Made by a program: the position numbers and the translations under genes. A stretch of 64,000 bases of DNA from a virus (taxonomy: Duplodnaviria > Caudoviricetes), in the IMG/VR virus record IMGVR_UViG_3300021255_002694; one strand, 5' to 3'. Under the pieces are notes generated by a model, which saw only the letters and a list, made by a program, of their open reading frames with translations, was not told the origin of the DNA and made no database searches. Below are positions 17,651 through 63,480 of this stretch, piece after piece (the stretch's first letter is position 1; the number at the start of each line of letters is the position of its first letter).

Positions 17651-19717
17651 ATGTTCGATCTTTATGAGAAGAAAGAAACAAAGTCTAAAGCAACTAATGG
17701 TAATTTGCATAAAGCAAAAGTAAATAAAAACGATGAATTCTATACACAGCTTACAGATATTGAAAAAGAACTTATGCACTATAAAGAACATTTCAAGGAT
17801 AAGATCGTATACTGTAACTGTGATGATCCGGAGTGGAGTAATTTCTGGAAGTATTTTCACCTTAATTTTGCACACCTCGGCTTGAAGAAATTGATCGCAA
17901 CATTTTATCATATCGGAGCATCCGTATATAAAATGGAATATACTGGTGGAGATGATAATAATATTTCTGCCGGAGTTAAGATTCCTCTTACTGGAAATGG
18001 TGATTTCAGATCGGAAGAATGTGTTGAAACTTTGAAAGAGTCTGATATTGTGGTTACTAATCCACCGTTTAGCTGTTACTCTAGCGATACTGAGGTCATG
18101 ACAAATAACGGCTGGAAACTGATTAAGGATGTTGACATCTCAACTGATTTAATTATGTCTCTGAATCCAGATACACATGAAATTGAATTTGTAAAAGCAG
18201 TTGACTTTATAACAAGCCCTGTAAATGGAGAACTTTATCACTATCAGTCAAGAAACATGGATTTCTGTGTTACTGGAAATCATAATATGTATGCTTATTA
18301 TAAAGATTGTCATGATGTTCCTAGAAGCATTCCTCTTGTAGAAGCTAGTTCCGTCAAGAAATCTTACATGCTTCCCATTACTGGCTTTTCATGGAGTGGT
18401 AACGATCAGGAATATTTTGTATTGCCAGAAACAAAGCAACTTGAACAATATACAAGAAAAGAAATCACTGTTCCGGAAAAGATGATCCCGATGGAAGATT
18501 GGCTTGAATTTTTCGGATTTTATCTTGCAGATGGATGTTATAGAGATCATATAAATTCACTCGGAAAAAGAGACTATACAATTTCAATTAAGCAAAATGT
18601 AAGCAATGAAGATTACGTGATTGATCTTATCCGGAGAATTGGATTTGATGCAAGAATCAGTGCAGGAAGTTCTGATTCCAATAAGAATTATAGTATCTAC
18701 TCAAAACAGCTTTGGGAATACTTGATGCAGTTTGGAAGAAGCCAGGATAAATATATTCCAAGAGAATTTCTCGATCTTGATGTAAAGTATCTCAAAGCAC
18801 TGTATAAAGGGTATACAAATGGCGATAGTTCTTTGTGTGCAGACGGTCATATTCACTTTTCAACTGTATCTGAAAAATTGATTTCAAACATTCAGGAACT
18901 TATCTTGAAAATTTTTGGACGCATTACACAAGTTAGAAAGTCTGTGCGTAAACACTCCTATGATGATAATTATGGAACATGTTACAGTATTAACGTAAAA
19001 CTAGATAAAAATAGAGATAACTTTAGTAAATATGTAACACCAAAAATGATTCCATATAATGACAATGTGTACTGTCTTACACTTGAAAAGAATCATATTA
19101 TGCTTGTTAGACATAATGGTATTATCGGGTGGTGTGGAAACTGTTTTAGAGATTATGTTGCACAGTTGATGAAGTATGAGAAGAAGTTTCTGATTATTGG
19201 AAATGTGAGTGCAATCACATATAAAGAGTTCTTCCCTTTAATTAAAAATGGAATGGTGTGGATTGGTCAATCAATTCACTCTGGAGATAGAAAATTTTAT
19301 GTTCCAGACTCGTATCCATTAAATGCATCTGGTTGTGGAATTGATGAAAATGGAAAAAGATACATACGAGTTAAGGGTGTTCGTTGGTACACTAATATGG
19401 ATTATGCTAAAAGGCACGAAAAACTTGTATTGTATAAAAAGTATGATTCGCAACATTACAGTAAATATGATAATTATGATGCAATCAACGTAGATAAGGT
19501 TATAGATATTCCTGTTGACTATGACGGAGTTATGGGTGTTCCTATCACTTTTTTGGATAAATACTGTCCTGAACAATTTGACATAGTGGATATAAACCCA
19601 CACTTTTTTAGCATTATTGAGCAGGGGCTACCTAAACCGAAGCAGCTAACTTTGCATAGTGTAGGAAAAAAAGATCCTTATGCCCGTATTCTTATACGCA
19701 AGAAAGTAGGTGCTTGA
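17651..19717 (+). CDS. EcoRI-family adenine-specific DNA methyltransferase containing an intein
   Basis: AK..KNDEFYT, YCNCDDP..SNF, GDFRS.EC, DIVVTNPPFS, GVMGVPITFLDKY.P.QF motifs. Confidence 0.92.
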   Translation: MFDLYEKKETKSKATNGNLHKAKVNKNDEFYTQLTDIEKELMHYKEHFKDKIVYCNCDDPEWSNFWKYFHLNFAHLGLKKLIATFYHIGASVYKMEYTGGDDNNISAGVKIPLTGNGDFRSEECVETLKESDIVVTNPPFSCYSSDTEVMTNNGWKLIKDVDISTDLIMSLNPDTHEIEFVKAVDFITSPVNGELYHYQSRNMDFCVTGNHNMYAYYKDCHDVPRSIPLVEASSVKKSYMLPITGFSWSGNDQEYFVLPETKQLEQYTRKEITVPEKMIPMEDWLEFFGFYLADGCYRDHINSLGKRDYTISIKQNVSNEDYVIDLIRRIGFDARISAGSSDSNKNYSIYSKQLWEYLMQFGRSQDKYIPREFLDLDVKYLKALYKGYTNGDSSLCADGHIHFSTVSEKLISNIQELILKIFGRITQVRKSVRKHSYDDNYGTCYSINVKLDKNRDNFSKYVTPKMIPYNDNVYCLTLEKNHIMLVRHNGIIGWCGNCFRDYVAQLMKYEKKFLIIGNVSAITYKEFFPLIKNGMVWIGQSIHSGDRKFYVPDSYPLNASGCGIDENGKRYIRVKGVRWYTNMDYAKRHEKLVLYKKYDSQHYSKYDNYDAINVDKVIDIPVDYDGVMGVPITFLDKYCPEQFDIVDINPHFFSIIEQGLPKPKQLTLHSVGKKDPYARILIRKKVGA
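18074..19141 (+). mobile_element. Intein (356 aa) with LAGLIDADG homing endonuclease
   Basis: Starts CYSSDTEV after NPPFS; block B VTGNH; FFGFYLADG and YTNGDS endonuclease motifs; VYCLT block F; ends WCGN followed by +1 Cys. Confidence 0.9.
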
Positions 19718-20915: not shown

Positions 20916-22466
20916 ATGACATATAATCTAATTGATGAACCTTGGATTAAGGTGAAATACCTTGACGGAACAACTACAGAAGTTGGAATTAGAAAATGTT
21001 TTGAAGATGCTGAAATCATTGATGATATTCTTGCTCCTAGTTTTCGCAGAGATACAATGCATATTTATTATATTCCAACACTAAGACTTCTAACAACTAT
21101 TGTTATGGCTGCGTATTTCAAGCCGGAACAGGACTTCACATCAAGAAATTTCAAGTATTTGCGTAAATTTGAAACCGGAATTTATACAGATGTTATTAAA
21201 GAATATCTTGATAAATTCCATGATCGGTTTGATGTTCTTTCTGTCGATTATCCTTTCTTGCAGAATAAAGACATTCTTGGAAAAGTTGAAGAAAACAAAA
21301 ACTGTGTTACATGGAACCCATTTATTCCGAGTGCGAATAACAAAGTTTTTGGTAAAAACAGATCACAAGATATGCAAGCAAATGATATTCTATCTCAATA
21401 TGAAATGACCGTAAAAGAATATGTATACTATCTTCTTTACACAGCAGTCATGGGTGTATATCCGTCAACGAAAGTTTCAAAGGAGACTGCACTTGAAGCA
21501 AAAGCAATGATTTATATTTCACTGAAAGGTAAAAATCTTTTGCAGACAATTTGTAATAATGTTTTCAAACTTAATAAAAGCAATGATTCAGACAATGATT
21601 ATGACAGACCTATTTGGGAACTTGAAAGAGTTGCAGATGTAGAAACATTGTTTCCTGTTAATTGTGATATACCTAGACAGAACAATAAGCTGATCTGTAG
21701 TTTCTATCCTGGCATCTCAATAATGAACACCGGAGCATCTGGATCAATGATTTCTGGATTTGTTAGAACAGGAACAGAAACGCTTGAAAACACAACAATC
21801 AATCAGGATGAGACAGCGGCTCTAGCTGATCCAAACGTATATTGTTGTGATTCTGCTGTATCAAAATCAGACAAAGACGGTAATAAGTCATATAAGGAAT
21901 TTAGTATTGATTCTGGTTTCGCAAGTTCAATCTGTATCGCGGCAACATCTCACATTGGAGATAACATGGCTTGCAATATCCTGAGTAATAACCGAGATTT
22001 TTCAGATTGTTCAGTAAGAATCTTTTTCAGAATGTTCGATGGCATGAAAGTTAGTCTTTTTCAATGTGGTGAAATTTCTGGAAATAATGCTAAGACATGG
22101 GAAATTTTACAGAATACTGATAAACATAACATAGCAGTTAAGTATAGCGAAACATATTATAAGATTAGAAAATGCTTAACAGGCTGTATTGCTGATATGT
22201 TCTCAGGAAAGAAAGTATCAGACAGTTTTATTAAAAAAGCTGTCAAGAATTTTTCTGATTTCATGGAACATGATTTCTTCAATGATTTCACAGTTGATCT
22301 TATAGAAGATGCAGAGAATGCTATTTATAAATTTGTTGAAAGATCGAGTGATGTTACGAAACAGATAGTCTCTGAAATTGTATGTTTCTCGGATAACATG
22401 ATCGGAAGTGCTAACGCTGTTTCAAAATTTAATAAGAACATGAAAAAATTGATTGAGGGGTGTTAA
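20916..22466 (+). CDS. cas8e: Type I-E Cascade large subunit Cas8e (Cse1/CasA)
   Basis: YNLIDEPWIKV, YL.+F.DRFD....PFLQ, G.NL.QT..N, PIWE motifs; operon position. Confidence 0.88.
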   Translation: MTYNLIDEPWIKVKYLDGTTTEVGIRKCFEDAEIIDDILAPSFRRDTMHIYYIPTLRLLTTIVMAAYFKPEQDFTSRNFKYLRKFETGIYTDVIKEYLDKFHDRFDVLSVDYPFLQNKDILGKVEENKNCVTWNPFIPSANNKVFGKNRSQDMQANDILSQYEMTVKEYVYYLLYTAVMGVYPSTKVSKETALEAKAMIYISLKGKNLLQTICNNVFKLNKSNDSDNDYDRPIWELERVADVETLFPVNCDIPRQNNKLICSFYPGISIMNTGASGSMISGFVRTGTETLENTTINQDETAALADPNVYCCDSAVSKSDKDGNKSYKEFSIDSGFASSICIAATSHIGDNMACNILSNNRDFSDCSVRIFFRMFDGMKVSLFQCGEISGNNAKTWEILQNTDKHNIAVKYSETYYKIRKCLTGCIADMFSGKKVSDSFIKKAVKNFSDFMEHDFFNDFTVDLIEDAENAIYKFVERSSDVTKQIVSEIVCFSDNMIGSANAVSKFNKNMKKLIEGC

Positions 22467-22467
22467 T

Positions 22468-22995
22468 ATGAGTACAAGTTCCGAGTTTGTTAAAAGTCTA
22501 TGGGCTAATCTATATGCTAAGTCTGGAAGCATCTATTGCTTGAAACGCGCATTTGGAAACTCTGTGAGCAGTTCCGATATCAACACATATATGTCTTTTT
22601 TAGATGTGTCAGGTAACACTTTTCCGGATAAACAGAAAGAGGTATACTTCCTTGTAGCAACAATGTTCTACAACTTTGAAAGACCTAATCAGGCAGAGAA
22701 AGATAACAGAACATTTGTGACATTCGAGAGACTTATTTCAAGAATCTACGGTAAGTCTAAATCTACAGACAAGATGATCCGGAATTTCATTGACAGTGAT
22801 TTTGACTCAAACGGTATTTTTGTCAATAGACTTGTAAGGCTGTCTAACAGATGTAAAAAAGAACTTCACAGCGGAGAGCATCTTGATTTCAACTCACTGA
22901 TCAATGATCTTGTTAGATGGAATGACGAATCCAAGTCTGTTAAGTTTAAGTGGGCATCTCAGATTGTGTCAAAATACACAAAAAATGACAAGTAA
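22468..22995 (+). CDS. cas11: Type I-E small subunit Cas11 (Cse2/CasB)
   Basis: LKRAFG, LDF..L..DL..W, V+.+W motifs; between cas8e and cas7. Confidence 0.8.
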   Translation: MSTSSEFVKSLWANLYAKSGSIYCLKRAFGNSVSSSDINTYMSFLDVSGNTFPDKQKEVYFLVATMFYNFERPNQAEKDNRTFVTFERLISRIYGKSKSTDKMIRNFIDSDFDSNGIFVNRLVRLSNRCKKELHSGEHLDFNSLINDLVRWNDESKSVKFKWASQIVSKYTKNDK

Positions 22996-23052
22996 CATTG
23001 TGACACTTTATATTCAAAAACACTTGACAGGATATAATATTTATAGTATACT
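22978..23052 (+). promoter_or_regulatory. Internal phage-type promoter with upstream site, in front of cas7
   Basis: ACAAA-N14-ATTGT (22978-23001); TTGACA(23024)-N17-TATACT(23047)ATATTTAC. Confidence 0.8.
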
Positions 23053-23103
23053 ATATTTACAGCAAAAGGCTGTAAACAGTAATTATTAAAAGGAGTAAAA
23101 ATT

Positions 23104-24321
23104 ATGGGAAAATTCGTAAGTCTGTCTATGTTGAAGAATTATTCTCCATCACTTGTGAACAGAGATGATTCCGGTGATGCAAAACAGGTTGTTGTTGGTG
23201 GAGTAAACCGTGCTAGAATTTCAAGCCAATGCTTGAAGAGGGCTGTGCGAGAGGAAATCGGAAACAGAGGTATTACAACCGCACATCTTGAAGACCTTGT
23301 TGAGCAGATTCTTTCCGATGAGTGTGTAAAAGGAACTATCTCTGAATCTGATATTGAAACTATTGGAAAAGCCGTTTGCTGTGAAGATGTACTCAACTGT
23401 GATTGGTCTAAGAGAGCATCAAAGACTGGTGAGAAGAAAGATGATGACGGAAAAGGCAGAACAGTCAATCAGGTTAATATGGTTGAGATCGGAACTGTAA
23501 TTAGGGTTGCAATCGAAAACAAGGACGCAAATCAGAAGGAACTTGTTAAAGCGATTAGAAATGCTCTTAATGATGTAAGAATTTCTGTAGATAAAGCAAT
23601 GTTTGGAACAATGGCAACATCCGGTTTGATTGAGACTGTTGATGGTGCTGTTCAGGTTGCACAGACATTCAGCATTGATGAGTACATCCCCGAAGATGAT
23701 TTTATCGTAGCAAAATTCTCTGCTGAAAATACAGATGACTTTGATCCGTTTTTCGGTAGTTACAAGAAATTTGAGAATGACAACATGAGAAAAACAGGAA
23801 GTGAAACACTTGCAAGTTCATGTCTGCACTCTAACACAATGCTTACATGCACATCCGTGAATGTTACAGAACTTAAAAGAAATCTATCTAGCAGTATTCA
23901 GCATACAGCGATTGATGTTGAAAATATTGATTCTGATGTTGCAAAAAGTGTATGTGACTATATCGAAACTGTAATCACAGCAGAACCGTCCGCAAAACAG
24001 AATGCCATGTCTGCACACTCTGTTCCGGCAGTTGTATATATTGAAGTTATTGAAGATGGTGCTGTTAAGTATCCGCAAGGTTCTTTTGAAAAGATCGTAA
24101 GGAGAACGGAATCCGATTCTGTATCTGAAATCGGAATTAAGCGAATTTCAGAATTTGCTGCCGATGATACTTTCAGAACAGGTAACATTAAGAAGTATGT
24201 CATGCTTTCTGCACCGTATAAGCGTCTTGAAGATATGTTTACAGATTCCGGAGTTACTGTAATTAAGAATCTAAGTAATCTTAGAGAAATTCTTGGTTCG
24301 GATATTCTTGGCATGATTTAA
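23104..24321 (+). CDS. cas7: Type I-E Cas7 (Cse4/CasC)
   Basis: PS.VNRDDSG..K....GG..RARISSQC.KRA.R, D.AMFG.M, VDGAVQVA, PSAKQN motifs. Confidence 0.93.
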   Translation: MGKFVSLSMLKNYSPSLVNRDDSGDAKQVVVGGVNRARISSQCLKRAVREEIGNRGITTAHLEDLVEQILSDECVKGTISESDIETIGKAVCCEDVLNCDWSKRASKTGEKKDDDGKGRTVNQVNMVEIGTVIRVAIENKDANQKELVKAIRNALNDVRISVDKAMFGTMATSGLIETVDGAVQVAQTFSIDEYIPEDDFIVAKFSAENTDDFDPFFGSYKKFENDNMRKTGSETLASSCLHSNTMLTCTSVNVTELKRNLSSSIQHTAIDVENIDSDVAKSVCDYIETVITAEPSAKQNAMSAHSVPAVVYIEVIEDGAVKYPQGSFEKIVRRTESDSVSEIGIKRISEFAADDTFRTGNIKKYVMLSAPYKRLEDMFTDSGVTVIKNLSNLREILGSDILGMI

Positions 24322-24392
24322 ATGTACCGTGCATGGATTGAAGCTAAATAATTTTGTGTGACATGCATATCGAAATCCACGTATTTCATAGT

Positions 24393-25148
24393 CTTTTTCC
24401 CACGCACATGGGGGTTATCCTATGCAGGTTTCCATGCACCTGATTTTCTTCCACTTTTTCCCACGCACATGGGGGTTATCCTCAAGCAAAAGGTCCTGAT
24501 TACTTTGAAGATATCTTTTTCCCACGCACATGGGGGTTATCCTGCCATCTTACTGGTTTCATAAAATCAAATCCTCTTTTTCCCACGCACATGGGGGTTA
24601 TCCCATCTTTCAATTCCTCCTCTGGAATTAGTTTGACTTTTTCCCACTCACACGGGGGTTATCTCAAAATCAAGATATTCCTGCTGCTGCAATTCGGATT
24701 TTTCCAACTCATACGGGTGGTTATCCTTTTCCAGTGATCGGATCAAAACCATCCTTTAACTTTTTCCTACTTTCGTGGAGTTATCCCTATTACAGGACTT
24801 GCACAATCAATACCTGAACCTTTTTCCACTCGCGTGGTGGTTATCCGCATTCGAGTCTTTCAGTCTGTGTTCCAGTACAGCTTTTCCCACCTGCATGGGG
24901 GTTATCCTTACTAGAAGAATTCCTTTCATAATATGTCTCATTTTCCCACTCGAATTGGGTTATCCAGATATTCCACAGGTATTGGTCCAAATCCAAGTCT
25001 TTTTCTCCACACACATGGGGTTATCCTTGATTTGTCAGAGTTCCTGGTGTACAAGCACACTTTTTCCCATGCAAGTTGGGGGTTATCCTACTCTGCTGTT
25101 TTGATAATTGCATCCGTTGTCCTTTTCCCGTGCAAACGGGGGTTATCC
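24393..25148 (+). CRISPR. CRISPR array 1, type I-E: 13 repeats, 12 spacers of 33 nt; consensus CTTTTTCCCACGCACATGGGGGTTATCC
   Basis: R1-R4 identical 28-mers at 61-nt period (24393, 24454, 24515, 24576); R5-R13 degenerate but keep the TTTT start and GTTATCC-like end. Confidence 0.97.
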
Positions 25149-25170
25149 TTAAAAGAGAGGGGTTTACTTT

Positions 25171-25692
25171 ATGAAATATATTAAGCTAATGTTTAAAGGT
25201 GTATTGCAGCATTACGCACCACCTAAATATGTTGTTATTGCACCATCAAGCACATATTATAGAACAGAGAGATGTCCAACAAAATCATCTATTGTAGGTC
25301 TTATTGGAGCATCTTCCGGATATGATAGAGATGATATTAGACTTATAGAATTAAAAAATAAAATTGACTGTAAGTATTCTATTATTAGAAATGGAACAGT
25401 TATTGTTGATTTTCAAACTGTAAGACCAATCGGTGATGAAAAATTCAGAAAAGTTGATGGTGGACTATCAACTGGTGCAATCATTAAGAAAGTTGAGTAT
25501 CTTCAAAATTATTCTTTTAATGTATATGTTGGTGCAGACGATGGAACTTTGAAACAGATTTACGATGCGCTTAGAAATCCTGTTTACCACCAATATTTTG
25601 GAAAAAGAAGTTGTGTTCCATCAGAACCTATTGTTACAGATTTTAATGTTGTTGATTTGGGGGTGCTTGAAAATGTATATGACTGTCCTTAA
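25171..25692 (+). CDS. cas5: Type I-E Cas5 (CasD), compact
   Basis: R.T..CPTKS.IVGLIGA..G..R, DFQTV, EYL...F, AL.NP....FG+RSC.PS.P. Confidence 0.9.
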   Translation: MKYIKLMFKGVLQHYAPPKYVVIAPSSTYYRTERCPTKSSIVGLIGASSGYDRDDIRLIELKNKIDCKYSIIRNGTVIVDFQTVRPIGDEKFRKVDGGLSTGAIIKKVEYLQNYSFNVYVGADDGTLKQIYDALRNPVYHQYFGKRSCVPSEPIVTDFNVVDLGVLENVYDCP

Positions 25693-26248
25693 AATTGATT
25701 TTGATTCACTTCAAACAAGATCATATCTTATGAAGATTGATGATGGTGATTTCATGCATAGATGGCTTACATCACAGATGGATTGTGAAAGAGTAGATCA
25801 GCATATTCTATACAGGGTTGACAAGTTTACAGACTCAATCTATATTTATATTCAATCTGACTCTGCATTCAATCTTAAAAATGTGCAGAAGTCTGGAATG
25901 AGTGTTGTTAAGCAGTTTGAAATTAACTGTGTCGGAGATAAAATCGCATTTGCTGTAAGATGTTTCCCGACTCACAGAGTAGGAGATAAAAGACTTTACA
26001 TCCTTAATACAGATGATCGCATGAACTATGTTAAAAGAATTTTATCGAGATATATTGATGTTGAGTCACTGACAGAAAATAGGTCTGCAATGTATTCAGT
26101 TAAAGGGAACGTAAAGTTGACATTTTGTGATTTCTCCGGTGTTGGAACTGTGAAGAACATGGGTAATTTTATGAATATTGTTAGGAATGGTATTGGAAAA
26201 TGCAAATGCTATGGCGCTGGAATGCTTCTTTTTAAGGGTGTGAATTGA
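25673..26248 (+). CDS. cas6e: Type I-E Cas6e (Cse3/CasE)
   Basis: MHR, ILYRVD, IQS motifs and C-terminal Gly-rich loop GIGKCKCYGAGML. Confidence 0.88.
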   Translation: MYMTVLKIDFDSLQTRSYLMKIDDGDFMHRWLTSQMDCERVDQHILYRVDKFTDSIYIYIQSDSAFNLKNVQKSGMSVVKQFEINCVGDKIAFAVRCFPTHRVGDKRLYILNTDDRMNYVKRILSRYIDVESLTENRSAMYSVKGNVKLTFCDFSGVGTVKNMGNFMNIVRNGIGKCKCYGAGMLLFKGVN

Positions 26249-28981
26249 GTGAAAAAATCTTGGTGTGTACTTGCATATGTGAATCCAACAAATGAAGTAA
26301 GAGGAAAAACAAGAAGATACCTCTATGAGGTCAAGCCAAATGTGTTTGTCGGTACTGTATCTACTTTAGTCAGAGAAACACTCTGGAATAAGATTAAAGA
26401 AACAAATACACTTGCTTCTATTATCTATTCAGCTAATACTGAACAGGGATTTAAGTCTGAAAGTACATACGGAGATGCAATGTTTTCGGATTTCGATGGA
26501 GTTATTCTTCCGACTTTTGAAAAAAGCATTCTGTCTGTAAAAGACATTTATGCAAAATCTGACGGCAAGAAACTGATTGATCATCTATTTGAAGCCGGAT
26601 ATATTGCACATGCACTTCTTACATATGGTAGAGGAAAGAATGCGATTCAACACATTGCAAAGTTGCTCAATGTAGATGTAGATAAACTAATTGATCTTAC
26701 TTGTTTTCTTATTGGAACGCATGATATCGGTAAAGCACATCCAACTTTTCAATTAAATCTAAATGATTCCAATACGTGCTGTGATGAAATTCATGACACA
26801 GTAATTAAACTCTTTCTCAGTGGATCATTCGATGTTACCGATAGCGGAGAAATGCGACATGAAAGATATTCAAGAGATATTTTATATGACTATTTTAATG
26901 ATCTTGGATTAGATGAATATTCATATGAATACCTTGCAGATATTATTGCATTTCACCATCAAGGCAAACTTGGAGATGCCGAAGAACTGACTGTATGTTA
27001 TGGATCAGAGACAGAAGATCGCTGGAAAGAGTGGAGAAATGTTCAGAGGCAGATGATTGAAAAAGTGCGATCAATCTGGAATATTGACACAGACTTCATC
27101 AAAAGCCTTGAGGATAAAAAATATACAAACGGTCTTTGTTACTTTATTCTTTCTGTAATGGTAACATCTGATTGGATTGTATCTGGAAAACATTTTGTGC
27201 AAACACTCAGTAATTGTAAAGGTGATATTGAAAAAGCCGCAAAAAGTTTTATCTGTACAAATCATTTAGATTGTTCTTCTATCAAGGATTCTTTGAAAAA
27301 TATATCTTGGGGTTCAGTATTTTCATTTGATAAGAATGCACTACAGACTTTTGTAACATCTGAAAAAGTTTCAGTAGATACTGATGAATGTCCGATGTAT
27401 GTTATCGAATATCCATGTGGCTATGGAAAGACCGAAGCCGCTCTTGCACTTGCGTTAAAAATCGGCGCAGATAAGAGTGGAATTTATCTCGCTGCACCTA
27501 CAATGTCTACAGCAAAAGGTCTTGCTAATAGATGCCGAGATATTGCAAAAAATGCCGGAATTGAAATGAACATTCCAGAGTTCGACAGCAGTATGATCTG
27601 GGAAGATAATGAGATGGAGAAAATTCCAAGAGAACTGTGGACGAGTAAGACAAGACATCAAATGCTTTATCCATTTGCTGTAGGAACTATTGACCAAGTT
27701 CTTAAATCTGTGATCAAGTATAGGTACTCATGTATCGGTATGCTCGGACTTTCAGATAAGGTCGTTATTATTGATGAAGTTCATGCCTATGATGCTTATA
27801 TGCTGACAGAACTTAAAACGCTGATTAGGTGGTGTAAGTTTCTAGGAGTTCCGATTATTCTTCTGTCTGCAACACTTCCAACTGAAACAAAACAGCAGTT
27901 GTTCTCTGCATCTGGAATAGCGACAGACATTAAAGAGTACAGCAATGAGTATCCACTTATCACATATGCATATAATGGAAAACTTATTCAGGAGCATATT
28001 GATTGTGTTGGAAAAGATGTGAACATTAAAACAGTTGAATCGAATGATATCATTGTGTCAATGCTGAATTCAGCAATGTCTGTTGAATCTGGATGTATTG
28101 CACTTATTGCACCGACAGTTGATGATGCTTTTGCACTGTATGATATGTTGAATGAAGAAGTGACTGATTGTGATGTTATTCTGTATCATGGAAGAATGTC
28201 AGTTTCGGATAAATCTGATAAGGTAAAAGAATTACTAAGACTTTTTGGAAAAGATAGATCAAATAGACCGAAGAAAGCCATTGTTGTTGCGACATCTATC
28301 ATCGAACAATCTCTTGATGTTGATTTTGACTATATGTTCACTGCGCTTGCTCCTATTGATCTTCTTATTCAAAGACTCGGCAGAGTTCACAGACATTCGG
28401 ATAAGGGAACTATTAGAGAGTTTACAAAAATCGACAGTCCTTTTACAGTAGTTATTCCAAGATCATATGATAATCTTGCAAGAATTTATGATTCGGAAAT
28501 TCTAAATAGAACTAAAACAGAACTATCTAAGATTAAAAAATTGAATACCGTTGATGACGTTCGGAGTATTATTGACAGTGCATATAATGGCTATTCTCCA
28601 CAGAGAGATAATATTTCTAGGATCAGAGCAAATTCTGTAACTTTGAATGATCCTGTAAAAAGAGATGCCATTGAAACATCTCCTGAAAATTATAGATCAT
28701 TCGATCCGGTTCTTCCAATAACAAGAGAAGAAAGATATCCTACAACTGATGTAATCATCATTCGTGAAATCAAAGATGAATATAGTTTTGCAGAAATTCG
28801 TGATATCATGTTGAATAACTGTATTAGCGTTGCTTCATACAAACTTAATCCGTTCCATGAACTTGCAATTACGGATTTTGAATTTTTTAGAGATGCAGAA
28901 ATATATGTCAGCGATAGCATGTTCATCACTTCCGGAGAGCATATTATGACACTTACAGGAGATGGGTTGAGGATTGAATGA
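26249..28981 (+). CDS. cas3: Cas2-Cas3 fusion: I-E-type Cas2 (about aa 1-90), HD nuclease, SF2 helicase
   Basis: N-terminal RG...RYLYEV.PNVFVG.VS..VRE.LW...NTEQGF...DFDG.IL (I-E Cas2); DHL, HDIGK, RHE, HHQG, SDW (HD); PCGYGKT, DEVH, SAT, QRLGRVHR (helicase). Confidence 0.93.
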   Translation: MKKSWCVLAYVNPTNEVRGKTRRYLYEVKPNVFVGTVSTLVRETLWNKIKETNTLASIIYSANTEQGFKSESTYGDAMFSDFDGVILPTFEKSILSVKDIYAKSDGKKLIDHLFEAGYIAHALLTYGRGKNAIQHIAKLLNVDVDKLIDLTCFLIGTHDIGKAHPTFQLNLNDSNTCCDEIHDTVIKLFLSGSFDVTDSGEMRHERYSRDILYDYFNDLGLDEYSYEYLADIIAFHHQGKLGDAEELTVCYGSETEDRWKEWRNVQRQMIEKVRSIWNIDTDFIKSLEDKKYTNGLCYFILSVMVTSDWIVSGKHFVQTLSNCKGDIEKAAKSFICTNHLDCSSIKDSLKNISWGSVFSFDKNALQTFVTSEKVSVDTDECPMYVIEYPCGYGKTEAALALALKIGADKSGIYLAAPTMSTAKGLANRCRDIAKNAGIEMNIPEFDSSMIWEDNEMEKIPRELWTSKTRHQMLYPFAVGTIDQVLKSVIKYRYSCIGMLGLSDKVVIIDEVHAYDAYMLTELKTLIRWCKFLGVPIILLSATLPTETKQQLFSASGIATDIKEYSNEYPLITYAYNGKLIQEHIDCVGKDVNIKTVESNDIIVSMLNSAMSVESGCIALIAPTVDDAFALYDMLNEEVTDCDVILYHGRMSVSDKSDKVKELLRLFGKDRSNRPKKAIVVATSIIEQSLDVDFDYMFTALAPIDLLIQRLGRVHRHSDKGTIREFTKIDSPFTVVIPRSYDNLARIYDSEILNRTKTELSKIKKLNTVDDVRSIIDSAYNGYSPQRDNISRIRANSVTLNDPVKRDAIETSPENYRSFDPVLPITREERYPTTDVIIIREIKDEYSFAEIRDIMLNNCISVASYKLNPFHELAITDFEFFRDAEIYVSDSMFITSGEHIMTLTGDGLRIE

Positions 28982-28983
28982 TG

Positions 28984-29940
28984 CTTTTCCTCACTTCACG
29001 GGGGTTATCCTACTGCCGCAACCTTGACTACAAGTTCAATGCACTTTTCCACACTGCATGTGGGTTATCCTATTAAGTTGCAAGTCAAGGAATTGAATTA
29101 CGTCTTTTTCCAACACACGGTGGTTATCCACCATGAGAACGATCCTGCGATACAGCGGTTGACTTTTCAAACGCACACGATGTGGGGGGGGGTATCCAAA
29201 ATCATGCACTGATCGAGTCAAACGGACATACCTTTTCCAACGCACACATGGGGGTTATCCTGGCTACCCTGTAAAATTACACTACTTTCAAATCTTTTCC
29301 CCATACATAGGGGGTTATCCTCTGCCAGTCGTGTCGTTTTCATACTCGTTTCAGTCTTTTCCATACATATTGGGGTTATCCAAAGTATTTATTGCTGTTG
29401 ACAAAAGAGCAAATCTTTTTCCACTTATATGGTGGTTATCCTGCCGAAGCTGGCAATGCACTAGGAAAAGGTCACTTTTCCCATTACACTGGGGTTATCC
29501 GTTGTCATTGTGATCTCTTGACCAAATCTATACTTTCCCATACACACATGGGTTATCCTGACATTACAGATAAGACAATGATTACTGCAATCTTTTTCTC
29601 ACACATACGAGTGGGGGTTATCCTGAAAGAATGGATATAAATGGGCAGAACGACAGTCCCACCCCCCCCAATACACATTGGGGGAGGGGGCTTATCCATT
29701 GTTTACTGATAGCGCAGTTTGAACTAATGACTTTTCACGTATACATGTGGGAGTTATCCTTCATTACAAAGTTCGTATGAGTTTGACTTAAACTTTTCCA
29801 CACACATAGGGGTGGTTATCCTCGATATTCGGTTTAGATATCAACCGATCAAGCATTTTCCCCATATACACGGGGGTTATCCGGAGATTGCCGATATTTA
29901 CATTGAAGCAACAAACTTTTCCCAATCACACAGGGGTTAT
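28984..29940 (+). CRISPR. CRISPR array 2: 16 repeats, all different, with 15 spacers of about 33 nt
   Basis: About 60-nt periodic CTTTTC...GGTTATCC units starting 2 nt after the cas3 stop; repeat lengths about 25-41 nt. Confidence 0.93.
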
Positions 29941-29976
29941 AATTATTACAATTTGGTTACAGATGTAAATAGACCA

Positions 29977-30005
29977 TTGACTTTTTATCCGTGCTGTGTT
30001 ATAAT
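29977..30005 (+). promoter_or_regulatory. sigmaA-type promoter for the tandem RNA units and the TROVE/TerD gene
   Basis: TTGACT-N17-TATAAT with TG extension, about 10 nt before the first RNA unit. Confidence 0.75.
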
Positions 30006-30283: not shown

Positions 30284-32329
30284 ATGAAAATATCGTTGAA
30301 CAATTTGCTTTTATCAGAACTCCGTGCATTTCCTGTAACCATGATTCCAGATAATGACGTTACAGATTCAACTCTAACAGCCGCGATTACTGCAAATGAA
30401 GAATTACTTAATCTAGGCTATACTTTATCAGCAGAAGATGTTGTTAATCTTGCAAAGTGTGGTGAACTGTATTCATTTGTAGAGATGTTCAAAGATGCTC
30501 TCTCGGATGTAAAAGCAAAACCAATGTATCCAAATTTCCCGAATCAAGTTATGGATATGGATGAAGCAACATTCAGATTTCATCAGATGATGCATTATTT
30601 TTCAACATATGGTGCAGAACTGTTTTTCGGTCTAAATGTATCTAAAGGATGGCTACCGAATGTAGAAGATACTCCTAAGATCAATGATGATAATACTTTG
30701 CTAAAAGCAAAGGTAATTACTCTTATTGATTCATATGACATTCCAGAATACGTTTATTCAAGAATTATGTCTAAATGCGAGAGATTGACAGATAAGGATC
30801 AGATGCTCCTTGACTATGTTCTTCCGAACATTGATGCAAGCACTATAAAGAGTGTTCAAATTCCGTTTAAGGAAAATATCATGCCTGTATTTTACAGTAT
30901 TGTCAATTCAACTGCAATTTCGCAAGAAGATAAACTTTGTTTTCTTAACTGTATTTGCAAGCATACCGGAGATGTTTTCAAGTGCATTGATTACACTCTT
31001 ACAAGATGCAAGTATCATTTCAAGACTTCTCAAAAAAGACTTTTCACAAAGTTGCTTGAAACATACAGTAACAGTGACTTTGAGGAAAATATAATTATCT
31101 CAGACAAGCGATCAAACAGAACAGAACTCTTGCTTAGATATATTGACTTTAACACATATTCACGTATTCCTGTATTCAAAACTATTGTCAATGAACTTCG
31201 ATCTGGTGAACTGCACTCTTGGATGTCTAAGGTCGAAGCAAAGTTGAAAACAAGAGATGTTGATGCTCTTAAGATGCTATCGAAAAGACCTGGCATCATG
31301 CTTAGAATGTTGACAAGACTTTTAAGACTCGGTTACAATCCTACAGATATTCTTGTATATCTGTATCCACATGCACCAGAACTTAGAACGCAGACACTTG
31401 TATCTATTCTAAACGCATTCAATGCTAAATTGGATGATCTTGAAAATAGTGATCAAAGTGAACTTAGTAGAGCAACAAGATCAGAGGTACAAAATGTGAT
31501 TACAATTTGTGCTGGATTACTTAGAGATAATCTTCACTCCAAAGATTCTCCGTTCAAAGGCAAAAGAGTTTATATTGATCACGGAGAGTACAATTTTGCA
31601 CGATCTATCATTGAAACAAACGGCAAATCTGATGAGGGCGGATATGTAAGATCAGGACTTTCATATAATATTCCAGATAATGTCAGTAGACTTAGATTCT
31701 TTGTTTACTGGAATCACAAGTATCGTGCAGATGTTGATTTGCACTCAAGACTTGTAGACTTCTGTGGCTGCACACAGGATATTGGATGGAATGCTAGTTT
31801 TAAAGAACCTGTTGCTGTATTTAGTGGAGACATTACACATTCAGATGCCGCAGAATATATTGACATTGATCTCGATGCAGCTAGAAATAACAATATCGAG
31901 TATGCAACAACATCAATTAAACTATATTCATCTGAGGATATAACAAACGGTCTTGGTGATCTTGATGAGTGTTATGTTGGATGCATGGCTGTTTCATCGC
32001 TTAATGAACATGTAAAACTGTATAATCCTAAAAATTGTTTCTTCTCACATAGTCTAATAACTAAGTCTAAGATACTTGGATACGGCTTTATCGACATTAA
32101 GAATAGATGCATTACAGTTTCAGCAAAGCCCAGTGTTGATGTATACCAATCTTCCATGCACATTCAGAAAAATCTATTCTCACTTAATACATATGTTAAT
32201 ATTCTTCTTTCATCACAAGATTGCGATATTGTAACAAGTAGAGAAGATGCTGATTTTGTTATTGTACTTGATAAGCCTATGAATGATATTGAGATCAGCT
32301 TGATTGACAATAATTTCTTTATGGATTGA
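30284..32329 (+). CDS. ROT/TROVE-like repeat plus C-terminal TerD-like protein (MXAN_6230/SCO0854-related, no RING seen)
   Basis: PMYPNFP.QV, IPFKEN, L..RPG..LR.L.RLLR, RFFVYW, DVDLHS, FSGDIT...AAEYIDIDL motifs. Confidence 0.7.
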   Translation: MKISLNNLLLSELRAFPVTMIPDNDVTDSTLTAAITANEELLNLGYTLSAEDVVNLAKCGELYSFVEMFKDALSDVKAKPMYPNFPNQVMDMDEATFRFHQMMHYFSTYGAELFFGLNVSKGWLPNVEDTPKINDDNTLLKAKVITLIDSYDIPEYVYSRIMSKCERLTDKDQMLLDYVLPNIDASTIKSVQIPFKENIMPVFYSIVNSTAISQEDKLCFLNCICKHTGDVFKCIDYTLTRCKYHFKTSQKRLFTKLLETYSNSDFEENIIISDKRSNRTELLLRYIDFNTYSRIPVFKTIVNELRSGELHSWMSKVEAKLKTRDVDALKMLSKRPGIMLRMLTRLLRLGYNPTDILVYLYPHAPELRTQTLVSILNAFNAKLDDLENSDQSELSRATRSEVQNVITICAGLLRDNLHSKDSPFKGKRVYIDHGEYNFARSIIETNGKSDEGGYVRSGLSYNIPDNVSRLRFFVYWNHKYRADVDLHSRLVDFCGCTQDIGWNASFKEPVAVFSGDITHSDAAEYIDIDLDAARNNNIEYATTSIKLYSSEDITNGLGDLDECYVGCMAVSSLNEHVKLYNPKNCFFSHSLITKSKILGYGFIDIKNRCITVSAKPSVDVYQSSMHIQKNLFSLNTYVNILLSSQDCDIVTSREDADFVIVLDKPMNDIEISLIDNNFFMD

Positions 32330-63388: not shown

Positions 63389-63480
63389 TGGCGGATGACA
63401 TAATCAAAGCATTTTGTTCTTTTCCACTATAGGGGGTTATCCACAGTGTGTTCGGGGTTCGAGTCCATGTTCGCCCATCA
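63389..63480 (+). pseudogene. tRNA-like scaffold (degenerate tRNA) containing a CRISPR repeat
   Basis: TGGCGGA/TTCGCCC acceptor-like stem, GGTTCGAGTCC T-loop, 3' ATCA; no canonical D or anticodon arm. Confidence 0.5.
63419..63442 (+). CRISPR. Solitary repeat of the same family as arrays 1 and 2
   Basis: CTTTTCCACTATAGGGGGTTATCC; compare array 2 R6 CTTTTCCCCATACATAGGGGGTTATCC. Confidence 0.75.

What the first reader, a model, noticed from the sequence alone, without database searches (positions are those of the whole stretch)
24393..29940. Arrays in which nearly every repeat is unique but handle, hairpin potential and 33-nt spacer length persist
Seen: only R1-R4 of array 1 are identical; the other 25 repeats differ from one another (about 25-41 nt). 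Variation is concentrated in the central stem-loop, while the 5' CTTTT and 3' GGTTATCC ends are largely kept and spacers remain 33 nt. Some variants look compensatory, e.g. the elongated C-run/G-run stem at 29657-29697 and CTC..GAG at 29592. Known: Cas1-Cas2 copies repeats exactly, and the 3' end of the repeat becomes the crRNA 5' handle. Inference: not neutral decay but selection for processable, non-identical repeats, which would resist recombinational spacer loss and imply a sequence-tolerant Cas6e. Such arrays may be missed by standard finders. The identical block next to cas7 suggests the most recent acquisitions occurred there despite only 71 nt of leader space.
Basis: partly seen in the sequence, partly recalled or inferred. 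Interest (0 to 1): 0.8.

Follow-up and report, generated by a model that had tools for sequence, protein, structure and literature searches.

The report
Ancient drifting CRISPR arrays of a jumbo phage
A probable rumen jumbo phage carries a type I-E CRISPR-Cas system in which almost every repeat differs but still looks usable, most likely because the arrays are very old, rarely gain spacers and are kept working to attack sister phages, not because differing repeats were themselves selected.

Summary
Two arrays (13 and 16 repeats) sit inside a cas8e-cas11-cas7-[A1]-cas5-cas6e-cas2/3-[A2] operon without cas1. Of 29 repeats, 26 are unique. The ends CTTTT and GGTTATCC are 85-100% conserved and the centres about 40-60%. 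24 of 26 unique repeats fold into a hairpin ending exactly 6 nt from the repeat end, and 22 of 27 spacers are exactly 33 nt. This is not sequencing error: an independent 60x contig is identical, and sister phages from three samples carry the same variant repeats.

Sister phages show the same polar pattern of 3-5 identical leader-side repeats followed by diverged ones. cas1 was lost at least three times independently. Spacers, including ones flanked by diverged repeats, hit sister-phage genes next to a 5'-AA PAM; one match is 33/33.

Purifying selection for processable repeats is supported. Selection for non-identity is not: orthologous repeat centres diverge 8-16% and spacers 7%, against about 26% at synonymous sites of flanking cas genes. 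Great age, rare acquisition and drift under structural constraint are enough to explain the pattern. This scan had also flagged the same arrays from an overlapping window.

The parts
20916..22466 (+). cas8e (cse1)
   Evidence: Pfam CRISPR_Cse1 4.8e-25; PADLOC Cas8e 2e-25
22453..22995 (+). cas11e (cse2)
   Evidence: Pfam CRISPR_Cse2 1.7e-6; PADLOC Cas11e 3.8e-9
23104..24321 (+). cas7e
   Evidence: Pfam Cas_CT1975 7e-46; PADLOC Cas7e 1.9e-47. A promoter-like site (11 of 12 matches) lies upstream at 23024-23052.
24322..24392 (+). 71-nt leader of array 1
   Evidence: Its repeat-proximal ~22 nt (GAAATCCACGTATTTCATAGT) resembles the leader between cas1 and array 2 in sister phages that have cas1.
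24393..25148 (+). CRISPR array 1: 13 repeats and 12 spacers. R1-R4 (24393-24603) are identical; R5-R13 all differ.
   Evidence: An RNA-library contig from the same sample covers 24858-25029.
24604..24636 (+). array 1 spacer 4
   Evidence: Matches cas5 of sister phages L094 and L014 at 29 of 33 positions with a 5'-AA flank. Two of the mismatches are in the seed.
24847..24879 (+). array 1 spacer 8, flanked by diverged repeats R8 and R9
   Evidence: Matches the GmrSD-HNH gene of L008, L009 and L013 at 29 of 33 positions with a 5'-AA flank. Mismatches fall at index 1, 7, 19 and 28; 7 and 19 are positions that Cascade does not pair.
25171..25692 (+). cas5e
   Evidence: Pfam Cas_Cas5d 5.7e-21; PADLOC Cas5e 5e-27
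25673..26248 (+). cas6e (crRNA endoribonuclease)
   Evidence: Pfam CRISPR_assoc 3.6e-17; PADLOC Cas6e 2.9e-19. A family profile hits CasE/Cse3 structures. His29 and the GIGKCKCYGAG loop are invariant.
26249..28981 (+). cas2-cas3 fusion (Cas2e domain, HD nuclease, helicase)
   Evidence: Pfam Cas_Cas2CT1978, Cas3_HD, DEAD and Cas3-like_C_2; PADLOC Cas3e 2.7e-131
28978..28983 (+). cas1 deletion junction. The stop/start overlap ATGATG of cas3/cas1 runs straight into the first repeat.
   Evidence: In L002, L005 and L096, cas1 follows at this point. W and L001 share this junction, while L008 and L094 have different ones.
28984..29942 (+). CRISPR array 2: 16 repeats and 15 spacers, all repeats different, with no leader
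   Evidence: Some units are shared with L001, L008, L002 and L094.
29559..29591 (+). array 2 spacer 10, flanked by diverged repeats R10 and R11
   Evidence: 33/33 match with a 5'-AA flank to L002 17143-17175, inside the homologue of window gene 30284-32329. The window's own copy differs there.
29657..29697 (+). array 2 repeat 12: 41 nt, with C-run and G-run both expanded
   Evidence: MFE -21.6 kcal/mol

Best explanation
These are two old, slowly turning-over type I-E CRISPR arrays of a probable jumbo phage (323.5-kb contig). They appear to be co-transcribed with the cas genes and are still used to attack sister phages.

New units enter only rarely, in short bursts, at the leader end of array 1 as exact copies of the first repeat. 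Older units persist for so long, across about 26% synonymous divergence between phage lineages, that their repeats drift apart.

Drift is filtered by function. The 3' GGTTATCC must stay because it becomes the crRNA 5' handle bound by Cas5/Cas8. The 5' CTTTT and a C-rich/G-rich hairpin ending 6 nt from the repeat end must stay as the Cas6e binding and cleavage site. The loop and upper stem are free, and homopolymer slippage adds indels there.

cas1 and the array-2 leader were deleted, so array 2 is frozen and holds only old, mutually different repeats.

Repeat heterogeneity is therefore mainly a by-product of age under purifying selection. As a side effect, diverged repeats may be the ones that survive recombinational deletion.

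What is shown and what is inferred:
- Shown: the anatomy, the conservation pattern, the hairpin geometry, the divergence rates and the targets with their PAM.
- Inferred: processing by Cas6e, co-transcription with the cas genes, and interference.
For: The cas gene set and Cas6e catalytic motifs are intact.

The repeat ends are 85-100% conserved against about 31-65% for the centres. In orthologous repeats, the ends differ from the centres with p=7e-6.

The hairpin ends exactly 6 nt from the repeat end in 24 of 26 unique repeats. Native arm pairs fold better than chimeras.

Sister phages show the same polarity. L002, L005, L008 and L096 have 3-5 identical or near-identical leader-side repeats, then diverged ones. 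L011, with the canonical gene order and cas1, has 11 of 13 identical repeats. A bacterial relative, L099, has ordinary arrays with the same repeat ends.

Trailer-side units are shared in the same order between lineages that differ by 17-38% at 4-fold sites.

Orthologous repeat centres diverged 8-16% and spacers 7%, so there is no acceleration.

Spacer differences are enriched at the positions Cascade flips out: 10 of 30 against 4.5 expected, p=0.01.

Protospacers in sister phages carry 5'-AA in 6 of 7 cases. They include a 33/33 match for a spacer flanked by diverged repeats.

There are three different cas1 deletion junctions.

The array 1 leader shares a motif with the cas1-side leader.

The sequence is reproduced in an independent assembly and in other samples.
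Against: No RNA ends or cleavage data exist. One metatranscriptome contig over array 1 could be DNA carry-over.

Paralogous repeat centres differ by about 36% while orthologous ones differ by 8-16%. Drift alone would therefore need units several times older than the lineage split, or an extra source of variation such as switching of the template repeat after leader-end deletions, or import of units by recombination. Neither was shown.

Loops of the leader-side 'master' repeats differ at 4-5 of 6 positions between lineages. That is more than synonymous sites predict.

Arrays are less diverged than flanking synonymous sites. This could reflect recent exchange rather than constraint.

The window phage lacks cas1 in this locus yet has four fresh units. 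The source of the integrase is unknown: a co-infecting sister phage, the host, a recombined array, or a cas1 elsewhere in the 323-kb genome, which I could not search.
Confidence: 0.62

Rival explanations
1. This is adaptive recombination-proofing. Non-identical repeats are positively selected because they prevent homologous recombination between repeats, and so prevent spacer loss, in a highly recombinogenic phage.
For: Identical blocks never exceed 4-5 repeats in this subclade, and every long-lived unit has diverged repeats. A distant jumbo phage without cas1 or cas2 (L100) has about 9 units whose stems are all different perfect palindromes. Master-repeat loops differ strongly between lineages.
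Against: Orthologous repeat centres evolve no faster than spacers in the strict set (8% against 7%, p=0.6). They evolve 2-3 times slower than 4-fold sites. L011 keeps 11 identical repeats. The same pattern arises passively, because units with identical repeats are the ones that get deleted.
Confidence: 0.15
2. The diverged units are a non-functional relic. Only R1-R4, or nothing at all, yields crRNA, and conservation of the ends simply reflects limited time.
For: cas1 is absent and array 2 has no leader or promoter of its own. Some repeats look damaged, such as A2 R4 with G9 and a TATCC end, R12 lacking CTTTT, and R16 ending in TTATAA. Most spacers have no known target.
Against: The centres have diverged while the ends have not, within the same 28-nt elements. 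The hairpin position is kept. There are PAM-flanked matches, perfect or differing mainly at positions Cascade does not pair, for spacers between diverged repeats. Spacer substitutions are biased to those non-pairing positions. All cas genes are intact in every lineage.
Confidence: 0.1
3. The apparent compensatory changes come from mutation, not selection. Intrastrand template switching at quasi-palindromes, plus slippage in C, G and T runs, copies one arm onto the other and expands the runs. This keeps hairpins without any RNA-level selection.
For: C-run and G-run are co-expanded in R12. G-run expansions to G9-G12 recur in many lineages and vary in length between samples. L100 stems are perfect Watson-Crick palindromes with 2-5-nt loops. 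The mechanism is documented for RNA hairpins (PMC8794818).
Against: It does not explain conservation of the unpaired CTTTT and TTATCC ends, the fixed distance of the hairpin from the repeat end, or the predicted G-U pairs in many stems. It can work alongside selection and need not replace it.
Confidence: 0.1
4. The repeat variation is a sequencing or assembly artefact.
For: Long homopolymer runs are error-prone. G-run length differs by 1 nt between L008 and L009.
Against: An independent contig at about 60x is identical over 24300-30000. The same variant repeats occur in three samples (L008, L009, L010), and orthologous variants occur in L001, L002, L005 and L094. Flanking reading frames are intact.
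Confidence: 0.02

Closest known systems
Canonical type I-E CRISPR-Cas (E. coli K-12, Thermus thermophilus, Thermobifida fusca Cascade)
   Same: It has the same gene set: cas8e, cas11e, cas7e, cas5e, cas6e and cas3. The unit is 61 nt. The repeat hairpin is followed by a handle of about 8 nt. The PAM is of the 5'-AA(N) type. Cas6e has a catalytic His and a glycine-rich loop.
   Different: The arrays lie inside the operon, between cas7 and cas5 and directly after cas3. Cas2 is fused to Cas3 and cas1 is absent. 26 of 29 repeats are unique, whereas canonical arrays have near-identical repeats. The system is carried by a probable jumbo phage.
CRISPR-Cas systems of huge phages (Al-Shayeb et al. 2020, PMC7162821)
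   Same: The system is phage-borne and mostly lacks Cas1, Cas2 and Cas4. The arrays are compact and some spacers target other phages.
   Different: That paper, as searched, does not describe arrays in which nearly all repeats differ. Here there are also sister lineages with and without cas1, which show repeated loss, and spacers aimed at the sisters' own cas and restriction-modification genes.
Vibrio phage ICP1 type I-F system (Seed et al. 2013; PMC6452262)
   Same: A complete phage-encoded class 1 system with a Cas2-Cas3 fusion and two arrays, used against a competing mobile element.
   Different: ICP1 is type I-F with cas1 and actively acquiring arrays with conserved repeats (my own knowledge plus the abstract listed). 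Here the type is I-E, cas1 is lost and the repeats have drifted.
Degenerate trailer-end repeats of ordinary CRISPR arrays (for example as used by CRISPRDetect, PMC4869251)
   Same: The degeneracy has the same polarity: identical repeats at the leader end and mutated repeats at the old end.
   Different: Ordinarily only the last one or two repeats are affected, as in L011 and L099. Here 9 of 13 and 16 of 16 are affected, while the functional elements are kept.
Functional degenerate repeats outside arrays: CreA and other cr-like RNAs (PMC9458426; 10.1101/2023.03.03.530964), and atypical repeats of transposon-borne CRISPR systems (PMC10734217)
   Same: They show that effector complexes can use repeats that depart strongly from the consensus.
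   Different: Those are single specialised guides with regulatory or homing roles. Here whole arrays of ordinary-looking 33-nt spacers are involved.

Membership tests
Type I-E CRISPR-Cas | Cascade genes cas8e, cas11e, cas7e, cas5e and cas6e, plus an HD-helicase Cas3 | tested here: met
   Pfam and PADLOC hits to all six. The Cas6e family profile hits CasE/Cse3 structures.
Type I-E CRISPR-Cas | Repeat-spacer unit of about 61 nt (28-29-nt repeat and 32-33-nt spacer) | tested here: met
   The identical block has a 28-nt repeat and a 33-nt spacer. 22 of 27 spacers are 33 nt.
Type I-E CRISPR-Cas | Repeat hairpin whose 3' base defines Cas6e cleavage, leaving an ~8-nt 5' handle | tested here: inconclusive
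   The predicted hairpin ends 6 nt from the repeat end in 24 of 26 unique repeats. Cleavage itself cannot be tested with these tools.
Type I-E CRISPR-Cas | 5'-AA(G)-type PAM next to protospacers | tested here: met
   5'-AA in 6 of 7 protospacers and A at -1 in 7 of 7, all found in sister phages.
Type I-E CRISPR-Cas | Adaptation module cas1 plus cas2 | tested here: not met
   A Cas2e domain is present, fused to Cas3. No cas1 is in the locus, and the deletion junction is at 28978-28983. cas1 is present in sisters L002, L005, L096 and L011. The rest of the 323-kb genome could not be searched.
CRISPR array in the strict sense (as standard finders define it) | Near-identical direct repeats | tested here: not met
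   26 of 29 repeats are unique. Mean pairwise identity is 75% overall and 64% in the centre. Only about 10 right-anchored columns reach 75% conservation.
Phage-encoded CRISPR-Cas used in conflicts between mobile elements | Carried by a phage genome | tested here: inconclusive
   The contig is 323.5 kb. Small genes run in one direction with steady GC skew. PHROG hits include NrdD and a Thg1-like enzyme. No structural gene lies in this window. Sister contigs reach 304 kb.
Phage-encoded CRISPR-Cas used in conflicts between mobile elements | Spacers match competing elements rather than the carrier itself | tested here: met
   Window spacers hit sister-phage genes, once at 33/33. No window spacer has a match of 20 nt or more elsewhere in the window.
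Decayed or orphan array | Loss of cas effector genes, or of the functional elements of the repeat | tested here: not met
   All effector genes are intact and conserved in 8 lineages. The handle and hairpin are retained.
Viral mini-arrays / solitary repeat units | One or two spacers, no cas genes, reliance on host Cas proteins | tested here: not met
   There are 27 spacers and a full effector operon. A separate solitary repeat does exist at 63419-63442.

The most novel reading that the evidence does not exclude
After repeated loss of cas1, these phage arrays have changed from adaptive memory into hard-wired, germline-like guide sets against conserved genes of sister phages, including the sisters' cas and restriction-modification genes. 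Spacers are held by purifying selection at the positions that pair with the target. Repeats are conserved only as a structure plus handles. The resulting heterogeneity is itself what makes such long-lived arrays stable against recombination. The same end state was reached independently in a second jumbo-phage lineage (L100).
Probability: 0.3. Interest if true: 0.75.

Novelty: new variant of a known kind. Interest (0 to 1): 0.6.

Why it matters
It would show that CRISPR repeats can lose almost all sequence identity and still serve. Only two handles and a hairpin in the right place would be required. That has four consequences:

- It sets a natural lower bound on what Cas6e and Cascade need.
- Repeat-identity-based finders would be systematically missing old phage arrays.
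- It offers natural templates for non-repetitive, recombination-stable multiplex guide arrays.
- It gives a tractable clade, with sister phages that have or lack cas1 and share some spacers, for measuring how long CRISPR memory can last and how phages use it against each other.

Tried and rejected
- **Close relatives in public collections.** Megablast of the locus against GenBank phages found no match. A Cas7 scan of IMG/VR found no relative. The metagenome scan with Cas2/3 gave only one close locus, L014; the rest were ordinary bacterial Cas3 at about 29% identity.
- **The window's own genome.** No whole genome is held for it, and the sister contig record could not be searched. So cas1 elsewhere in the genome, and further spacer targets, remain untested.
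- **A Cas1 homologue search.** I had hoped it would reveal a cas1 on the 323.5-kb contig. It is uninformative, because the contig lengths listed describe cluster representatives.
- **Newest spacers.** A1 S1 and S2, with N at the positions Cascade does not pair, had no exact match in IMG/VR.
- **Standard detectors available here.** Tandem Repeats Finder and Rfam found nothing for the arrays. CRT and CRISPRCasFinder could not be run.
- **Cas6e against PDB.** A single-sequence search gave nothing; the family profile did.
- **Column-wise covariation counting.** I abandoned it because C-run/G-run register slippage and indels prevent a fixed pairing register. The chimera permutation test was used instead.
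- **One split array.** I considered whether the two arrays are a single array split by cas5-cas6-cas2/3, and rejected it. Array 1 has its own duplicated cas1-end/leader motif, and L011 lacks array 1.
- **Read laying.** Parts of the stretch not covered by contigs of runs X2, X4 and X20 carry no meaning.
Full report
**1. What is there**

The region 20916-29942 is a co-directional type I-E locus. In order it holds:
- cas8e (20916-22466), cas11e (22453-22995) and cas7e (23104-24321)
- array 1 (24393-25148)
- cas5e (25171-25692), cas6e (25673-26248) and a cas2-cas3 fusion (26249-28981)
- array 2 (28984-29942)

All gene calls rest on Pfam and PADLOC hits.

No cas1 is present. The cas3 stop overlaps an ATGATG that runs straight into the first repeat of array 2. 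A promoter-like site lies before cas7 and another after array 2. I saw no convincing terminator between the genes and the arrays, so co-transcription with the cas genes is likely, though this is inference.

The element is probably a jumbo phage:
- The Cas7 protein sits on a 323.5-kb contig.
- GC content is 34%, with steady positive skew and small co-directional genes.
- PHROG hits include NrdD and a Thg1-like enzyme.
- Holders of the sequence are ruminant gut and rumen metagenomes.

**2.

Assuming 33-nt spacers, almost every repeat starts with CTTTT and ends with GGTTATCC.
- Of 29 repeats, only A1 R1-R4 are identical, which leaves 26 unique sequences.
- With the 5' boundary placed at [C/A]TTT, 22 of 27 spacers are exactly 33 nt and the rest are 32-35 nt. 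Repeats are 26-41 nt.
- The last eight bases are 92-100% conserved and the first five 85-96%. The centre is only about 31-65% conserved.
- GGTTATCC occurs 24 times against 0.8 expected.
- Every repeat folds into a hairpin. In 24 of 26 unique repeats the hairpin ends exactly 6 nt before the repeat end. That geometry would give a constant crRNA 5' handle.
- Joining the 5' arm of one repeat to the 3' arm of another gives weaker hairpins than the native pairs: -4.8 against -5.5 kcal/mol. The permutation p is 0.012 in the window, 1e-4 for 96 unique repeats of the clade, and 0.02 without the two expanded repeats. So there is arm-specific covariation beyond generic C-run/G-run pairing, although the effect is modest.

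**3. It is not error**

An independently assembled contig at about 60x from the probable source run covers 24300-30000 with no difference. L008, L009 and L010, from three samples, carry the same variant repeats and differ only in one G-run length.

A metatranscriptome library of the source sample yields an identical 172-nt contig over array 1 R9-R11. This is only a weak hint of transcription, because DNA carry-over is possible.

**4. Sister phages**

Cas7 homologues at 69-96% identity led to eight related loci.
- L011 (73% Cas7 identity) has the canonical order cas8-11-7-5-6-2/3-cas1 followed by one ordinary array. In it, 11 of 13 repeats are identical and spacers begin with G.
- The closer subclade has a second array between cas7 and cas5. 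Its leader repeats the cas1 3' end and the leader motif of the original array, so array 1 arose by duplication and has a genuine leader.
- L002, L005 and L096 keep cas1. W/L001, L008 and L094/L014 have lost it through three different deletion junctions.
- In both kinds of phage, array 1 starts with 3-5 identical or near-identical repeats and then changes abruptly to diverged ones. Array 2 has an identical block only where cas1 and its leader remain (L005, L096). In L002 it has none.

So the identical block marks the acquisition end, acquisition is rare and comes in bursts, and repeat divergence is a property of the whole clade.

A bacterial relative (L099, 45% Cas7 identity) has ordinary arrays with the repeat CTTTTCCCCGTGTATACGGGGGTTATCC, which has the same ends. 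A distant jumbo phage without cas1 or a Cas2 domain (L100) has about nine units at a period of about 60 nt. Their stems are all different perfect palindromes, and several are followed by GTTTTTC. That is an independent and more extreme case of the same pattern.

**5. Age and rates**

Several trailer-side units are shared, in the same order, between lineages. Those lineages differ by 17-38% (mean 26%) at 4-fold degenerate sites of the flanking cas genes.

| Sequence class, in orthologous units | Divergence |
|---|---|
| Spacers | 30/429 = 7% |
| Repeat centres, orthologous spacers or trailer on both sides | 14/171 = 8% |
| Repeat centres, orthologous spacer on one side only | 45/273 = 16% |
| 5' T-tract | 0-6% |
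| 3' handle | 3-8% |
| 4-fold sites of flanking cas genes | 17-38%, mean 26% |

The repeat centres are therefore not accelerated. They evolve like the spacers or up to twice as fast, and 2-3 times slower than synonymous sites.

Indels are about 15 times more frequent per base in repeat centres than in spacers, as I computed from the counts. They fall largely in T, C and G runs.

Spacer differences are enriched at index 7, 13, 19, 25 and 31, the positions that type I-E Cascade flips out and does not pair. That is 10 of 30 against 4.5 expected, p=0.01, or 9 of 29 with p=0.02 after removing one shared change. The sample is small and the pairs are partly non-independent. The result fits continued selection on guide function.

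**6. Targets**

Spacers match genes of sister phages:

| Spacer | Target | Match |
|---|---|---|
| W A2 S10 | L002 homologue of gene 30284-32329 | 33/33 |
| W A1 S8 | GmrSD-HNH gene of L008, L009 and L013 | 29/33; mismatches at index 1, 7, 19, 28 |
| W A1 S4 | cas5 of L094 and L014 | 29/33; mismatches at index 4, 6, 22, 26 |
| L001 spacers | sister cas6 and the 3' end of cas3 | 29-30/33 and 27/33 |
| L011 spacer | sister methylase gene | 32/33; mismatch at index 31 |

Six of seven protospacers are preceded by 5'-AA. Two of the three window spacers with targets lie between diverged repeats. No window spacer has a match of 20 nt or more elsewhere in the window, and the window's own copy of the S10 target differs at that site.

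**7. Reading**

The most economical explanation is great age combined with rare acquisition and purifying selection. Repeats must keep the handle, the T-tract and a hairpin at a fixed distance. Everything else drifts and slips. Loss of cas1 and its leader froze array 2.

Cas6e keeps its invariant His29 and glycine-rich loop. The conserved repeat positions are those Cas6e and Cascade are known to read (established knowledge), so no exceptional tolerance needs to be assumed.

Three things remain unexplained:
- Paralogous repeat centres differ by about 36%, several times the orthologous divergence.
- Master-repeat loops differ at 4-5 of 6 positions between lineages.
- Arrays are less diverged than flanking synonymous sites.

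Three further processes are plausible but were not shown:
- switching of the template repeat after leader-end deletions
- import of units by recombination; the locus is mosaic, with W cas5 98% identical to L008 but 64% to L001
- templated quasi-palindrome mutation (PMC8794818)

Positive selection for non-identity is not needed and finds no support in the rates. A passive survivorship effect, in which units between identical repeats are deleted, cannot be excluded.

The four fresh units in a phage without cas1 imply one of four things: an integrase supplied in trans, an array obtained by recombination, a recent loss of cas1, or a cas1 elsewhere in the genome.

**8. Comparison with what is known**

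Huge phages are known to carry CRISPR-Cas systems that mostly lack Cas1, have compact arrays and sometimes target other phages (PMC7162821). ICP1 carries a complete I-F system (PMC6452262). Degenerate terminal repeats are routine. Single degenerate repeats can be functional, as in CreA and other cr-like RNAs (PMC9458426; 10.1101/2023.03.03.530964).

My literature searches found no description of whole arrays in which nearly every repeat is different yet the functional elements, targets and cas genes indicate use. I therefore class this as a new variant of a known kind, of moderate to high interest.

Noticed in passing
window 63419-63442: A solitary copy of the repeat (CTTTTCCACTATAGGGGGTTATCC) lies 33 kb downstream of the cas locus. 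It is the only GGTTATCC in the window outside the arrays.
   Followed up: partly
window 28978-28983; L008 15748-15782; L094 6813-7019: There are three different cas1 deletion junctions in sister phages. W and L001 keep only ATGATG. L008 keeps about 30 nt of the 5' end. L094 and L014 have an internal deletion that keeps both ends and the leader. So cas1 was lost repeatedly while the effector genes stayed intact.
   Followed up: yes
L100 13780-14240: A distant 426-kb jumbo phage has cas8e-cas11-cas7-cas5-cas6e-cas3 but no Cas2 domain and no cas1. It carries about nine units at a period of about 60 nt. Their stems are all different perfect palindromes (for example CTCCCTATATAGGGAG, CCCCAAATTTTGGGG, CTCAGTTTACTGAG), and several are followed by GTTTTTC.
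   Followed up: partly
L099 11372-12026 and 15828-16298: A bacterial genome (GCA_000424365.1) has the same I-E variant with a Cas2-Cas3 fusion and two ordinary arrays. Its repeat CTTTTCCCCGTGTATACGGGGGTTATCC shares both ends with the phage repeats. It may represent the donor or host lineage, and a possible source of Cas1 in trans.
   Followed up: no
window 24604-24636; L001 6910-6942 and 11074-11106; L011 16670-16702: Spacers of these phages target each other's defence genes: cas5, cas6e, the 3' end of cas3, the GmrSD-HNH gene and the EcoRI-like methylase gene of sister phages.
   Followed up: partly
L008 11479-11511 and L096 3593-3625: Two leader-side spacers in different phages come from the same protospacer. 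They differ at five positions (index 4, 13, 16, 19, 31), all spaced by multiples of three. This looks like independent acquisition from diverged copies of one coding gene.
   Followed up: no
window 29163-29197 and 29657-29697; L001 11658-11696; L002 16580-16614; L008 16155-16191; L096 3869-3900, 8777-8804 and 9022-9053: The G-run of the 3' stem arm has repeatedly expanded to G9-G12. Its length is polymorphic between samples: L008 has G10 and L009 has G9, and a contig of run X4 carries an extra GGGG after window 29118.
   Followed up: partly
L001 11562-11597; L002 11511-11543: In two lineages a shared spacer carries an extra TCC directly after the repeat end TTATCC. This looks like a 3-nt duplication at the repeat-spacer junction, and it shifts the unit.
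   Followed up: no
window 24322-25692 compared with L001 and L008: The locus is mosaic. The window's cas7 is 96% identical to L001. Its cas5 is 98% identical to L008 (4-fold divergence 0.10) but only 64% to L001. The trailer of array 1 is shared with L008, which suggests a recombination breakpoint in or near array 1.
   Followed up: partly
window 17651-19717: The EcoRI-like adenine methyltransferase is 688 aa here, against 307-348 aa in sister phages. It matches the Pfam model in two separate stretches and has a weak LAGLIDADG hit at residues 386-441. It probably carries an intein or homing-endonuclease insertion.
   Followed up: no
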